A stretch of 64,000 bases of DNA from Escherichia coli. GTDB taxonomy: Bacteria > Pseudomonadota > Gammaproteobacteria > Enterobacterales > Enterobacteriaceae. The stretch is from the NCBI RefSeq assembly GCF_013122565.1, contig NZ_CP053258.1. One strand, written 5' to 3'. Position numbers: made by a program. Within the stretch, counting starts at the first letter, position 1; each line of letters begins with the position of its first letter. This document shows, one piece after another, positions 31,801-37,800 of this stretch.

Positions 31801-34800
31801 GAGCTCTGGTCACTGACGGATACCAACGTGTCGTAACGTACAGGGACCGGAGATTTACCTGCTCATACCGCTATGAACGTTCCACTAAAGGCGATATAGT
31901 TCTTATAAACCACTTATCAGCAGATACGAGTAACACCGTTACCGCGCTGTCGTGGCCTGCCTCTGTTACTTTTCTCCGGTACCGTACTTCGCCCCACAAT
32001 AGCGCCATGCTCTTTCTGTTTAACTTTCGCTAGATAACTGATGGCATACCGAAGGTCATTCATTGCCGCGGTATCTGCATAGTGGATAACCTAGTCGATT
32101 CGGACCGGATAATTTTCTTTAGCACGGCACAGGTGGTGGTATCCGTCTCCTTCTGTTGCCCGTTCCCAGACATCTCCCATCAAACGGGAAAGCTGGTAAG
32201 GGTTCTGGTGATACTGGCCGTTCAGATAACCGAGTAGATGGATATGCAGACCTTTCTTCACTGTGTATTCCATCACCCAGTAATAACCGGCCATCGCGTT
32301 TTCTGTTTCGGTCAACAGGTGTAGTATTTCTGTACACATGGTGTGTTTACAGACATGCCCGAAACTGGCGGTATTTTTCCGGTAAGCGAAATCAATTCTG
32401 AAGGGTAACAGCTTAGCGAAACGCTGAAACATCGCTTCCATGTGGGCGTTGATGTCCTCCAGAATCTGACCATTCATTACGTAGTTAGGATTGGCGTTGT
32501 AAGGCTTCATTTGTCTTCCTCTTGTTGAGTCAGAGGAAGACGTTGTTACGTAATTTTTACACAGGCCGATTGACCTCACATTCACCTGTAGCTTCCCCTA
32601 GGGAACCAGCAACATGTACTACTCATGGCGAGACTGACGGATACCATTGATATGAGGAGAGCAGATTGTTATCAGATAAGGGGGATGGATCTGTCCTGTA
32701 TGATCTCAGCAGGCAGAACTGACAGCACGGGAGAGAGCAAGTAGCATACCAGGATAAGACAACATAACTATCACTACGTCACGATATAACTTCTGCAAAT
32801 AATACTAATTAACCTTAATTTATCTGTCTTGATCCCATCACGTAATGTCACGAACGGTGCAAAAGTGGCTCTTCCGCAACTTGGGTGGAGATTTTCATGC
32901 CAATGGACTCATTACCCTCTGCCTGAGTAGTTCAAATCCAGCTTGACCATACATCTGGCGTTTGAGCATCTTCAGGCGATTTACATGACTTTCGACAACA
33001 CCATTACTCCAGCGACTGCTGACTGCCTCACATATAGCCGCAGCATCGGCTTCCATCACCGCAGCCACGCGCCGAAGTTCTGCTGAATCGATTTCGTGGA
33101 CTCGAGTGAACCAGCTGCTTAGCCGTGATTTAGTTTGGGTTTTCAGAATACGGTAGAACTCTAGTGCCAGTTGATGCGCTATTTTCAGCTCCGGTTCTTT
33201 TTCACACATCAGACTAATAAATCGGGAAGCATAATTTTCTTCACCCCTGATTATTCTCCAGGGCATCAACCAGCGGCTTACCCGGTACACTGAAAGAAGT
33301 CTGGCAGCAGTAGTCACCAGCGGGATCCAGCCTTTACGCCATTTGGCAACAGCATCCCTGACGATGTTTTCACTGCCTGTAACCCCCCGGGTCACCATTT
33401 CCCGCATATCCGGCTGGCATTATAATTACCACTTTCTCATTGCTCTTTTAACCACTCCCTCCAAGGGTCCAGAAGTCCTCGCTTTGGAGGCCGGGTTGAC
33501 ATTTCAGGGAATGTTCCTGAACGCGCCCAGCGACTGACTGTCACTCGCGACAGGCCTGTAATACGGGATATTTCCCTGAAACTACATCCCTTGTTATGCA
33601 GGGCCATAACCTCTGTCCAACGCTGATGCCGTTTTTTGCGGATTTGCTGTTTAAGGCGTTCCGGACGACGGAGCGATGCTGCAGGCACAGACAGTTCTGG
33701 CTCAGGTGATTTCTTTGGTGACAACTCACTGGCAACAAGACGTATCAGATGCCTATGTCTGTACATCAATCGTTCAAGCGCATCGCCAATATTTTTTAGC
33801 AGATGCTATCGATCAGCCACCTGTCTGACCTGAGGTGCACCTTCACGTGCTGCTGTCGCATAGGTTCCACTGCGATCACGCGAGACAACCTGTATTTCCG
33901 GATATTTTCTGAACCAGGTCGCCAGCGTACGCTGATCGCGGTCGGGAAGCAGGACAGTGAGTATCAAGATTGACTATTAACGTACCGTAACGGTGGCCCC
34001 GATGCCACGCCCACTCATCAATACCGACATGGGGTGAGCCTGACAGTTTCGTCTCCGGGGTATTGATAACTCTGCGAAGAAGAGTATCTGCACTGCAACA
34101 GAGACCCACTGCCGTTGCTGCCCGTTTTCCAGCCTCACCTCCAGCTATTAATCCCAGTTGACGTTGTAAATTTTGTAACGCCTGTGAAGACTGCTGGTGT
34201 GAACCAGCGAAGGGAGTAAGCGACTCGGCAAAAATTTTACGTGAACAAGCTGGGTTACGGCAGTACCAGTGGCGGGCGGAAAATACAAGCCATAGCGTCT
34301 GCCCTGTGTTGAATATTGGCATGCAAAAAATTGGATTGCGCTCGCGCCCTTAATTACCCGGCGATGGGGAATAAGCTTCATCAGCCGTTGTCCCCGGGTG
34401 TAGCGTGCACAGTTGCATATCATTCTCAGACGAACCGATGGCTGGAGGGATGGTCGCCGCAGCCTGCCATGAGACTGTAATTAAAATTGTGTAATTGCCT
34501 GTTTTTGATATGTTCACTCCAATAACGGAGACAGGCAAATTATGGACGAAAAGAAACTCAAAGCACTGGCGGCTGAACTGGCTAAGGACCTTAAAACCGA
34601 AGCCGACCTCAATCAGTTTTTCCGTATGCTGACGAAATTAGCCGTCGAAACAGCGCTCAATGCGGAGCTGACTGACCACCTCGGACATGAGAAAAATGCG
34701 CCAAAAACAGGTTCAAACACCCGCAATGGCTACTCGTCAAAAACGGTGTTATGCGATGATAGCGAGATCGAACTGAACACGCCGCGTGACCGTGAAAACA

Positions 34801-37800
34801 CCTTCGAGCCGCAGCTGATTAAGAAGCACCAGACGCGCATTACTCAGATGGACAGCAACATTTTATCCCTTTACGCCAAAGGCATGACTACCCGAGAAAT
34901 CGTCGCCACCTTCAAAGAAATGTCCGACGAAGATGTGTCACCCACGCTGATATCTAAGGTCACCGACGCGGTAAAAGAACAGGTTACTGAGTGGCAAAAC
35001 CGACAGCTGGATGCGCTGTATCCCATTGTTTACATGGACTGTATCGTCGTAAAAGTCCGTCAGAATGGGAGTGTGATAAACAAGGCCGTCTTCCTGGTGC
35101 TGGGGATCAATACCGAAGGCCAGAAAGAGTTGCTGGGCATGTGGCTGACCGAAAACGAAGGCGCAAAGTTCTGGCTGAGTGTGCTGACGGAGCTGAAAAA
35201 CCGTGGCCTCCAGGACATTCTTATAGCCTGTGTGGACGGTCTTAAGGGCTTCCCGGATGCGATAAACAGCGTCTTCCCGCAGCCCCATATCCAGCTGTGC
35301 AGCATCCATGTGGCGCGTAACAGCCTGAAATACGTGTCCAAGAAGGACTACAAAGCCGTCACCAGCGGCTTGAAGACTGTCTATCAGGTCCGGACCGAAG
35401 AGGCGGCACTGATGGCGCTCGATGCGTTCGCGGAAGTCTGGGACGATAAATATCCGCAAATCAGCAAAAGCTGGTATGCGCACTGGGAAAACCTCAATAC
35501 GCTCTTCAGTTATCCGCCGGATATCCGCAAGGCCATCTACACCACGAACGCAATCGAATCGCTTATCAGTATGATCCGAGCTGCGATTAAGAAACGCAAA
35601 GTGTTCCCGACGGATGACTCGGTACGAAAGGTTATTTATCTGGCGACCAAAGATGCGTCGAAAAAATAGAGTATGCCGATCCAGAACTGGCGGTTAGCAA
35701 TGAGCCGTTTTATTATCGAGTTCGGTGATCGCCTGAGCGATCACCTTTAATACATTGGCAGTTACACACAATTACTGACAGGCTCCCTGCCATAAGTTAA
35801 TAAAAAATTAACGCATATATAAATAAAAATCACCATAAAGTTATTCTTTCAGAGGGGGGTAGCTAAATACACTTCCGACACAGTGATATGCCGGTTTTCC
35901 TGACAGCATGTTGTGTTTTGCGTCCAGCTCTGAAGGCGTCATTTCGGAAGCAAGATATTTGACATAATGTGTTCCACTTTCATCTTCCCATAACTGAACT
36001 TTGCCTTCCTCAGCAAGCTGTTCCAGAACAGGCTCAAGATCAGCTTTTTTTCTGAGTGAACGATGCAAGCCCTGCATCATGTCACGCCTTAAAAAATCAT
36101 AAGATCCATTTTTAACAAGATGGTTTTCGAGCCACCAGATAACTCTTTCAGAATGCGAAGGCCCTCTGACAGCATCCATTTTTACAATAAAATGGTTAAG
36201 ATACCATTCTGATATTAACAACGCCGCTTCCAACGTTTCGAGCGTAATAACAGTTGAGTCAGGAGTAATAAACAACTGCATCACAGCGGCATTCCTTGCT
36301 GTATGTTCAATGTATCGTGCTGCCCAGTCGCTGTGATGGTACAACTTTTTCCCTGGTTGCATCAGATGTTTTACGTACCTGCCAACATCATGTAGCCGTT
36401 TCTTTGCATCAGGTGAAAAAGTCATACAGATACGGGGGTGATTTTTTTCCCTGCGTTCAATCCCTGCAAGTAAATGTTTTTTCTGAATAGAATAAAACGT
36501 TTCCAGGTCGGACTCATCGCCAGATACCAGCTCATCAATATCAATTAGTCTGCTGAGTAACGTAAGATCCATGGTTAACGTCCGCGCATATACTCCCGTA
36601 GCCCGTACTGTATTGCCCAGCGATTTCAGTGTGCTATCGTGTGGTTCCGGTTGCGTCATCAGCAGCATACCAAGCCGTGGATCCTTAATATCGTAACAGC
36701 CCGTTGACACACGGCTGACCCGATAATCATCACCACACCACAACGTATTAGGAACTGCTGTCTTACGGCGCATAATGCTTTCATGCAGAGCACTTCCCTC
36801 GTCAGACGTGATACCCAGACTGGGATATTCCCCTAGCTCTTTCAAAAGTGCTTCAGCCGTAGGATCCGTTACCGTGAGACGCACTCTCACGGGTTTAATG
36901 GGCTGATTTTTAAGACATTCCTCCAGTTCGTTTCTGGCTTTATCCACTCCATCTTTCTGACGCACTGCTTTCTGAAGCAATTTCTTAAGACTCTTACATT
37001 CTTCATCCCATAGTACGTATTGCCGCTCATACTCCTTCAGCCTAACTGAGAACACATCAGCCAGCTCTCTCTCAATTTGATGAATTTGCGCCATGATGAG
37101 CCTGTATACTGTCGTTTTTCTGCTTCCTGATCTCGCCAGTATTATGTGAAATTGTGACACAGGAACGATAACGCCATCATCAATTTCAACATCATACATA
37201 TCCTGACAGGCCAAGGCCATGCTCCCCTGAAGCGTCGCAAAGATAAGCTCCACCGCTGCTCTTGTTTTGCCATATATACAAAATATAACTTTTTGAAAAA
37301 AATACAAAATCGCTCTGGCGCTCAGATTAACATCATGATTTTCAGTTTTTTTATATGTGAGTTTCATTGCATAATCTCTCTTTAGAAAAAATTAAACACT
37401 TCTGGATGCAATCCACTCATCAACGGAAGTGGAACGACATCCAACGGAGGCAGCACCGAGTCTGACGGGCTTTGGAAACGTTTCGTCGTAATACCTGGAT
37501 TCAGGGTTTAGCTTTTCATAGATAGTTGACCGGGACAGACCGACTATTTTCGTCAGTTCTCTCATACGCAGAATACGTTGCTGTGGCTCTGGTTGGGTGG
37601 TTTGAAAAGATGACATTATCGATTCTCCTGTGAATGTCCGGATGTGACCGAACTTTGGCACAGGATTTGGAATAATGTCCCCGTAAAAGAAACGAAACCA
37701 ACTGCAGGGAGTGACTATGCATACGTTTGCCAATCTGATGTATGATGTTTACCAATCCTTTGGCTTATTCAGTAAAGGGGACCGGCAAGGCGAGATACGG

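What the first reader, a model, noticed from the sequence alone, without database searches (positions are those of the whole stretch)
34542..35760. IS256-family transposase inactivated by a single in-frame stop, with the C-terminus still encoded downstream
Seen in sequence: the ORF ends …KDASKK-stop and the next codons read SMPIQNWRLAMSRFIIEFGDRLSDHL-stop in the same frame, indicating a recent nonsense mutation.
Basis: seen in the sequence. Interest (0 to 1): 0.3.

Follow-up and report, generated by a model that had tools for sequence, protein, structure and literature searches.

The report
Old, decayed IS256-family insertion sequence copy
This is an ordinary dead copy of a jumping gene (an IS256-family insertion sequence) inside an E. 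coli genomic island: its transposase gene is cut short by a Trp-to-stop mutation that is real but old, not recent, and public genome annotation already marks it as a pseudogene.

Summary
The ORF 34542-35669 ends KDASKK-TAG, and the same frame continues for 26 codons (SMPIQNW...SDHL) to TAA at 35748-35750. The gene lies in a complete 1315-bp IS256-family element (34471-35785) with 29-nt imperfect terminal inverted repeats and an intact 8-bp target duplication (CCTGCCAT). The stop is a G-to-A change at 35668 (TGG Trp to TAG). All 115 full-length close homologues are 402 aa with Trp there. None of 51 distant family representatives ends at that point. [quoted passage not shown] The mutation is not recent. 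The same TAG, at the same insertion site, occurs in three E. coli chromosomes whose copies differ from the window's by about 1.1-1.2%, and the exact ORF occurs in at least 24 independent assemblies. Substitutions since the split from intact copies are mostly nonsynonymous (34 N: 13 S against 14 N: 28 S between intact copies) and hit otherwise invariant residues. The stop is therefore the only ORF-breaking lesion but not the only damage. "IS1414-like" holds only at family level (72% identity, no astA). RefSeq already annotates the orthologues as pseudogenes. Low interest.

The parts
34463..34470 (.). Left copy of the 8-bp target-site duplication, CCTGCCAT
   Evidence: Printed directly from the sequence. 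Identical in six Logan contigs.
34471..34499 (+). Left terminal inverted repeat (IRL), GAGACTGTAATTAAAATTGTGTAATTGCC; TGTAA at positions 20-24
   Evidence: the repeat finder pair I1: 29 nt, 76% complementary to 35757-35785.
34471..35785 (+). Whole IS256-family insertion sequence, 1315 bp, single copy in the window
   Evidence: IR pair plus TSD. Full-length matches to annotated IS256-family elements. The IRR pattern occurs once in the window.
34542..35669 (+). Truncated transposase ORF, 375 aa plus TAG. It retains the dimerisation, DNA-binding and HTH regions, D166/D232/E339 and C253/H256.
   Evidence: Residue mapping from the alignment to PDB 6XG8 and PMC7780238.
35667..35669 (+). Premature stop TAG, from TGG (Trp376) by G-to-A at 35668
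   Evidence: Alignment column 35668: A in the window and three E. coli orthologues, G in two intact Salmonella plasmid copies. Trp in 115 of 115 close homologues and 33 of 51 distant representatives.
35670..35750 (+). Stranded C-terminal coding remnant, 26 codons plus TAA. It would form the loop and last helix (residues 383-399) of the catalytic domain.
   Evidence: AlphaFold2 model: helices 358-376 and 383-399. ISCth4 catalytic domain runs to residue 407 (PMC7780238).
35757..35785 (+). Right terminal inverted repeat (IRR). It has a window-specific change at 35769 (C; G in all five compared copies).
35786..35793 (.). Right copy of the 8-bp target-site duplication, CCTGCCAT
35257..35370 (+). 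Frame equivalent to the astA (EAST1) ORF of IS1414. Here it reads MR-stop with a second stop later, so there is no toxin gene.
   Evidence: compared with an annotated IS1414/astA locus.
34308..34463 (+). Flanking IS3-family transposase fragment, next to an ISL3 pseudogene at about 32893-34307 (-). The IS landed among older IS debris.
   Evidence: RefSeq annotation of the 99.2-99.3% identical orthologous loci. PF01610 DDE_Tnp_ISL3 on the neighbouring called gene.

Best explanation
A 1315-bp IS256-family insertion sequence transposed once into a serX-tRNA-associated genomic island of an E. coli lineage, into a stretch already littered with ISL3 and IS3 remnants, and made an 8-bp target duplication. 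Its transposase gene then lost function and has been drifting as a pseudogene. The only ORF-breaking lesion is TGG to TAG at codon 376. [quoted passage not shown] About 20 missense changes at otherwise invariant positions have also accumulated. The element is inherited passively with the island and is non-autonomous. Its ends are nearly intact, so in principle it could move only if a related transposase were supplied in trans. Shown here: the anatomy, the ancestral codon, sharing of the stop across diverged lineages, and the relaxed-selection signature. Inferred: that the truncated protein is inactive, and the order of the lesions.
For: Anatomy: IRs, TSD, and family assignment (PDB 6XG8 at E=7e-103). 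Ancestral Trp. No homologue ends there: 115 of the 120 best close homologues are 402 aa, and the earliest projected end among 51 distant representatives is residue 385. The tail is conserved family-wide: W383 43/51, R397 40/51, F/Y394 42/51. The tail is structured: the ISCth4 catalytic domain is residues 165-261 plus 325-407 (PMC7780238), and the AlphaFold2 model has helix 383-399 with block pLDDT about 87-88. Age: the same TAG and insertion site occur in three E. coli genomes whose copies are 1.1-1.2% diverged, and the surrounding 9.3 kb diverges in parallel. Relaxed selection: stem N20:S7 and crown N14:S6, against N14:S28 between two intact copies; Fisher p = 0.0013, 0.013, and 0.0003 combined; neutral expectation about 3.5:1. 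Pairwise pN/pS is 0.63-0.70 against 0.14. No further transposition is visible: one copy in the window, and every place shown for the exact allele has the same neighbours. RefSeq already flags the orthologues as pseudo with an internal stop. Decay of IS256-family copies in E. coli is commonplace (PMC12585946 for IS1414).
Against: The 375-aa product keeps every catalytic residue and nearly the whole Pfam domain (model positions 9-373 of 379), so loss of activity is inferred, not measured. Substitution counts are small (20 crown changes), and crown pN/pS is somewhat below 1, so weak residual constraint cannot be excluded. No unoccupied site was found in 5,426 complete E. coli genomes, so the pre-insertion sequence is reconstructed only from the TSD. 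The experimental paper on IS256 transposase deletions (Hennig and Ziebuhr 2010) was not available.
Confidence: 0.92

Rival explanations
1. The truncated 375-aa protein is still functional. It could be a weakened transposase, or a trans-acting inhibitor or regulator that binds IS256-family ends through its intact N-terminal dimerisation and DNA-binding domains.
For: The DDE triad and CxxH motif are all upstream of the stop. Pfam coverage is 9-373 of 379. The ORF has stayed open for 375 codons in all four diverged lineages. Crown pN/pS of 0.63-0.70 is not fully 1.
Against: The missing segment is part of the ordered catalytic domain in ISCth4 (PMC7780238) and is a confidently predicted helix. It is conserved across the family, and no natural homologue lacks it. 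Missense changes hit conserved core positions: I254S, V258A, and N342I in the window lineage. The N:S ratios are near neutral and differ significantly from intact copies.
Confidence: 0.04
2. Full-length transposase is still made at a low level. This could happen by read-through of the UAG, or by termination and reinitiation at the in-frame ATG four nucleotides downstream (35673) giving a two-piece enzyme. Under this reading the stop acts as a throttle rather than a kill.
For: TAG is followed by AGT ATG in frame. The tail is still identical to the consensus.
Against: Trp is present in 115 of 115 intact close homologues and Met378 is ancestral, so nothing has evolved for recoding. Substitutions on both sides of the stop look neutral, including Q381H in the PapRG copy's tail. 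There is no sign of new insertions. To my knowledge no IS family uses programmed stop read-through.
Confidence: 0.02
3. The stop is a sequencing or assembly error, or a very recent strain-private mutation, as the first reader implied by suggesting resequencing.
For: None found.
Against: The identical base is found in three complete RefSeq chromosomes from different hosts and countries, and the exact ORF occurs in at least 24 contigs of independent runs.
Confidence: 0.005

Closest known systems
Unnamed enterobacterial IS256-family element with a 402-aa transposase (e.g. Salmonella plasmids pCFSAN029939 and pCFSAN001140; E. coli, Enterobacter, Citrobacter, Klebsiella proteins P0001-P0120)
   Same: Same length (1315 bp), same IRs, 94.5-96.3% nt and 93-95% aa identity, same C-terminal tail.
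   Different: Those copies have TGG at codon 376 and an uninterrupted 402-codon ORF. The window copy has TAG plus about 20 private missense changes.
ISEc39 (IS256 family, E. coli, e.g. strain LF82)
   Same: Same family, length and architecture. The astA-equivalent frame is also closed.
   Different: Only 84.3% nt and 89% aa identity, so by the usual ISfinder isoform thresholds (my knowledge) it is a different IS species.
IS1414 (IS256 family, carries astA/EAST1 in the -1 frame of tnp)
   Same: Same family and a 402-aa transposase. Many E. coli copies are likewise decayed or inactivated by tnp mutations (PMC12585946).
   Different: 72% nt and aa identity. The astA-equivalent frame here has a stop at codon 3 and another later, so no EAST1 is encoded.
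ISCth4 TnpA (PDB 6XG8/6XGW/6XGX), the structurally characterised IS256-family transposase
   Same: Alignable over residues 17-397 (E=7e-103). Matching DDE (D175/D241/E348 = D166/D232/E339) and CxxH motifs. 8-bp TSD and a TGTAA(A) subterminal motif (PMC7780238).
   Different: Distant relative from a thermophilic Clostridium, active in vitro. The window protein lacks the equivalent of about residues 385-407.

Membership tests
IS256 family insertion sequence | Transposase of the Mutator/IS256 type | tested here: met
   PF00872 E=9e-112, 374 bits against cutoff 21. NF033543 transpos_IS256 403 bits against cutoff 150. PDB 6XG8 E=7e-103.
IS256 family insertion sequence | DDE catalytic triad plus C/DxxH motif in the helical insertion domain | tested here: met
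   D166, D232, E339 and C253/H256 align to ISCth4 D175, D241, E348 and C262/H265 (PMC7780238). They are conserved in 45-49 of 51 representatives.
IS256 family insertion sequence | Imperfect terminal inverted repeats of about 25-40 bp with a subterminal TGTAAA-like motif | tested here: met
   29-nt IRs, 22 of 29 complementary. TGTAAT and TGTAAC at positions 20-25 of the two ends, a 5 of 6 match to TGTAAA (read; motif from PMC7780238).
IS256 family insertion sequence | 8-9 bp target-site duplication | tested here: met
   CCTGCCAT at 34463-34470 and 35786-35793.
IS256 family insertion sequence | Copy-out/paste-in transposition through a circular intermediate | not testable with these tools
   Needs PCR across a circle junction or an in vivo assay.
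Autonomous (active) IS copy | Uninterrupted full-length transposase ORF | tested here: not met
   TAG at codon 376 of 402. RefSeq marks the orthologues as pseudo with an internal stop.
IS1414 | Near-identity to the IS1414 reference (isoform level, roughly 90% nt or 95% aa or better, by ISfinder convention as I know it) | tested here: not met
   72.4% nt and 72.1% aa identity to an annotated IS1414.
IS1414 | astA (EAST1) ORF embedded in the -1 frame of tnp | tested here: not met
   The equivalent frame at 35257-35370 reads MR-stop.
ISEc39 | Near-identity to ISEc39 (isoform level) | tested here: not met
   84.3% nt and 89.3% aa identity.

The most novel reading that the evidence does not exclude
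The 375-aa product, which keeps the dimerisation and end-binding domains but lacks the last catalytic-domain helix, could be retained as a trans-dominant inhibitor. It would dampen transposition of incoming IS256-family elements, much as truncated transposase inhibitors do in other IS families.
Probability: 0.03. Interest if true: 0.4.

Novelty: already known. Interest (0 to 1): 0.06.

Why it matters
It matters very little beyond correct annotation. It is one more decayed IS copy in an IS-rich corner of a tRNA-linked genomic island. Its modest uses are threefold. First, it is a stable lineage marker: the same insertion site, TSD and TAG occur in a rare set of E. coli strains. Second, it is a small worked example showing that a 'single clean stop' does not imply recency. 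Third, it shows that the last helix of the IS256-family catalytic domain is universally retained in intact relatives.

Tried and rejected
- **Empty-site search.** I joined the two flanks with one TSD copy and searched 5,426 complete E. coli genomes. No place covered 80% or more of the query, so no unoccupied site was found.
- **Flank identity puzzle.** I suspected gene conversion or hypermutation because 408 bp of right flank was 100% identical to A30/JNE23-001 while the IS differed by 1.2%. The 9.3-kb comparison rejected this: divergence is spread evenly through the pseudogene-rich region and is simply lower in the intact yfjI.
- **IS1414/astA hypothesis.** Tested and rejected.
- **Experimental evidence on C-terminal truncation.** I looked for it in Hennig and Ziebuhr 2010. 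The paper is not held, and the papers that cite it did not report the relevant result, so I did not use my memory of it.
- **Second copy in the window.** None found.
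Full report
**Observation.** An ORF starts at ATG 34542, runs 375 codons, and ends ...ATKDASKK-TAG at 35667-35669. 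The same frame then reads SMPIQNWRLAMSRFIIEFGDRLSDHL and stops at TAA 35748-35750. An open run of 26 codons is not remarkable on its own. What makes it meaningful is that, with Trp restored at the stop, the 27-residue tail is identical to the consensus C-terminus of 115 full-length homologues.

**What the element is.** The protein is a Mutator/IS256-type transposase: Pfam PF00872 at E=9e-112, NCBIfam transpos_IS256 at 403 bits, and PDB 6XG8 (ISCth4 TnpA) at E=7e-103. The gene sits in a complete insertion sequence of 1315 bp (34471-35785).
- The terminal inverted repeats are 29 nt and imperfect, 22 of 29 complementary.
- Each end has TGTAA at positions 20-24, close to the TGTAAA subterminal motif described for the family (PMC7780238).
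- The element is flanked by an exact 8-bp direct repeat, CCTGCCAT, at 34463-34470 and 35786-35793.

All structural criteria of the IS256 family are met. The window holds only this one copy.

**The lesion.** I aligned the window copy with five full-length copies. Position 35668 is A in the window and in three E. coli chromosomal copies, and G in two intact Salmonella plasmid copies. That is TGG (Trp376) changed to TAG.
- Of the 120 best database homologues (93-95% identical), 115 are exactly 402 aa and the other five are 396-401 aa, mostly labelled partial. All 115 have Trp at 376.
- In an exhaustive search of 1.84 billion cluster representatives, 51 relatives at 32-51% identity span the catalytic core. 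None ends at or before the equivalent of residue 375, and the earliest projected end is residue 385.
- In those 51 the tail is a conserved family feature: W376 33/51, W383 43/51, F/Y394 42/51, R397 40/51.

**What the truncation removes.** Using the ISCth4 alignment and the published residue assignments (PMC7780238), the catalytic D166, D232 and E339 and the C253/H256 motif all lie upstream of the stop. However, the ISCth4 catalytic domain is defined as residues 165-261 plus 325-407. The stop corresponds to about ISCth4 residue 385, so the last ordered ~23 residues of the RNase H-like domain are lost. An AlphaFold2 model of the repaired protein, built on a 31-sequence family alignment, has mean pLDDT 85. 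It shows helix 358-376, a short loop, and a final helix 383-399 with block pLDDT of about 87-88. The stop deletes that loop and helix. Loss of activity is a structural inference and was not measured. The one experimental paper on IS256 transposase deletions was not available.

**Not recent, and not the only damage.** The three E. coli chromosomes (PapRG-06-5, A30 and JNE23-001, from baboons and a human in different countries) carry the element at the same site. The neighbours are the same: ISL3 pseudogene, IS3 fragment, this IS, then yfjI. They also carry the same TAG, and RefSeq marks the gene there as a pseudogene with an 'internal stop'.
- These copies differ from the window copy by 1.1-1.2%. 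The surrounding 9.3 kb has diverged in parallel, with about 3-8 differences per 500 bp in the pseudogene-rich left part and in the IS, and 1-3 per 500 bp in intact genes. The island, with the IS already broken, was inherited by all these lineages.
- Polarised against the intact copies, the branch leading to the four stop-bearing copies carries 20 nonsynonymous and 7 synonymous changes. The branches after their common ancestor carry 14 and 6. The two intact Salmonella copies differ by 14 and 28.
- Fisher's test gives p = 0.0013 (stem), 0.013 (crown) and 0.0003 (combined). The neutral expectation is about 3.5 to 1.
- The replacements fall at about 20 positions that are invariant or nearly so in the 115 close homologues. 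Several are conserved family-wide. I254S sits where 45 of 51 representatives have I, V or M. V258A sits where V, I or L dominates. N342I, in the window lineage only, sits where 47 of 51 have N or H and is three residues after catalytic E339.

This is the signature of a long-dead gene. Whether the stop or one of the missense changes was the first inactivating hit cannot be resolved.

**Not an artefact.** The exact 375-aa ORF is on record in at least 24 contigs from independent sequencing runs. Every place shown has the same neighbours. The six loci retrieved are 99.9% identical to the window and have the same TSD. It also shows no evidence that this allele ever transposed again.

**The 'IS1414-like' label.** A genuine IS1414 with its embedded astA gene, retrieved through the EAST1 peptide, is only 72.4% (nt) and 72.1% (aa) identical to the window element. 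The astA-equivalent frame here (35257-35370) reads MR-stop. ISEc39 is closer, at 84.3% nt and 89.3% aa. The closest intact relatives, at 94.5-96.3% nt, are unnamed 'IS256 family' elements on Salmonella plasmids and in many Enterobacteriaceae. A recent survey reports that most IS1414 copies in E. coli are themselves decayed or carry inactivating tnp mutations (PMC12585946). So this kind of finding is routine.

**Context.** The window is an E. coli-type chromosome. The gene order is csgG, ycdZ, ycdY, ycdX, ghrA, tRNA-Ser(GGA) at 10956-11043, an island of about 31 kb, then ycdU. A 14-nt repeat of the tRNA 3' end at 42413-42426 marks the far island boundary. The IS lies inside the island among ISL3, IS3 and IS66 debris.

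**Rivals.**
- A still-useful truncated protein, as a weak transposase or an inhibitor: about 0.04.
- Low-level read-through, or reinitiation at the ATG four nucleotides after the stop: about 0.02.
- Sequencing error: refuted.

**Verdict.** The family and the nature of the lesion are right. The age is wrong, and the claim that the stop is the sole lesion is too strong. The element is an ordinary, already-annotated IS pseudogene of low interest.

Noticed in passing
window 10956-11043 and 42413-42426; integrase ORF 41160-42251 (-): The roughly 31-kb island is bounded by tRNA-Ser(GGA) and a 14-nt direct repeat of its 3' end (CCCCCTCACCGCCA). The tyrosine integrase sits at the tRNA-distal end rather than next to the tRNA.
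   Followed up: partly
window about 30500-34463: An IS 'graveyard' lies to the left of the element: IS66 fragment, two zinc-ribbon pseudogenes, an intact YfjJ-like gene, a frameshifted ISL3 transposase and a 156-bp IS3 fragment. This is taken from RefSeq annotation of orthologous loci that are 99.2-99.3% identical.
   Followed up: partly
L012 and L013 versus window 30596-32491: Two Logan contigs carrying the identical IS allele lack about 1.9 kb of the left-hand neighbourhood. This points to ongoing deletion in the decayed region.
   Followed up: no
L004 (Salmonella Bareilly plasmid pCFSAN001140), equivalent to window 34995-35003: This copy is annotated as intact but has a 9-bp in-frame deletion removing N153-R154-Q155. 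R154 is invariant in the 31-sequence family alignment, so this copy may itself be defective.
   Followed up: partly
window 35257-35370: The frame that encodes EAST1 in IS1414 is closed by a stop at codon 3 here, and also in ISEc39 and an intact Salmonella copy (L005). Among the elements compared, the toxin ORF is open only in IS1414.
   Followed up: yes
window 35769: A window-lineage-specific substitution in the right inverted repeat: C here, G in all five other copies compared.
   Followed up: no
window about 44313-63659 (- strand): To the right of ycdU there is a cluster of genes: beta-ketoacyl synthases, an ACP S-malonyltransferase, ABC transporter components and a LolA-like protein. It resembles an aryl-polyene-type lipid biosynthesis cluster. 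That resemblance is from memory and was not tested.
   Followed up: no
window about 23993-29190 and about 12826-13658: The island also carries a chaperone-usher fimbrial operon and a CbtA/CbeA toxin-antitoxin pair. Both are assigned by collinearity with the strain A30 annotation.
   Followed up: no
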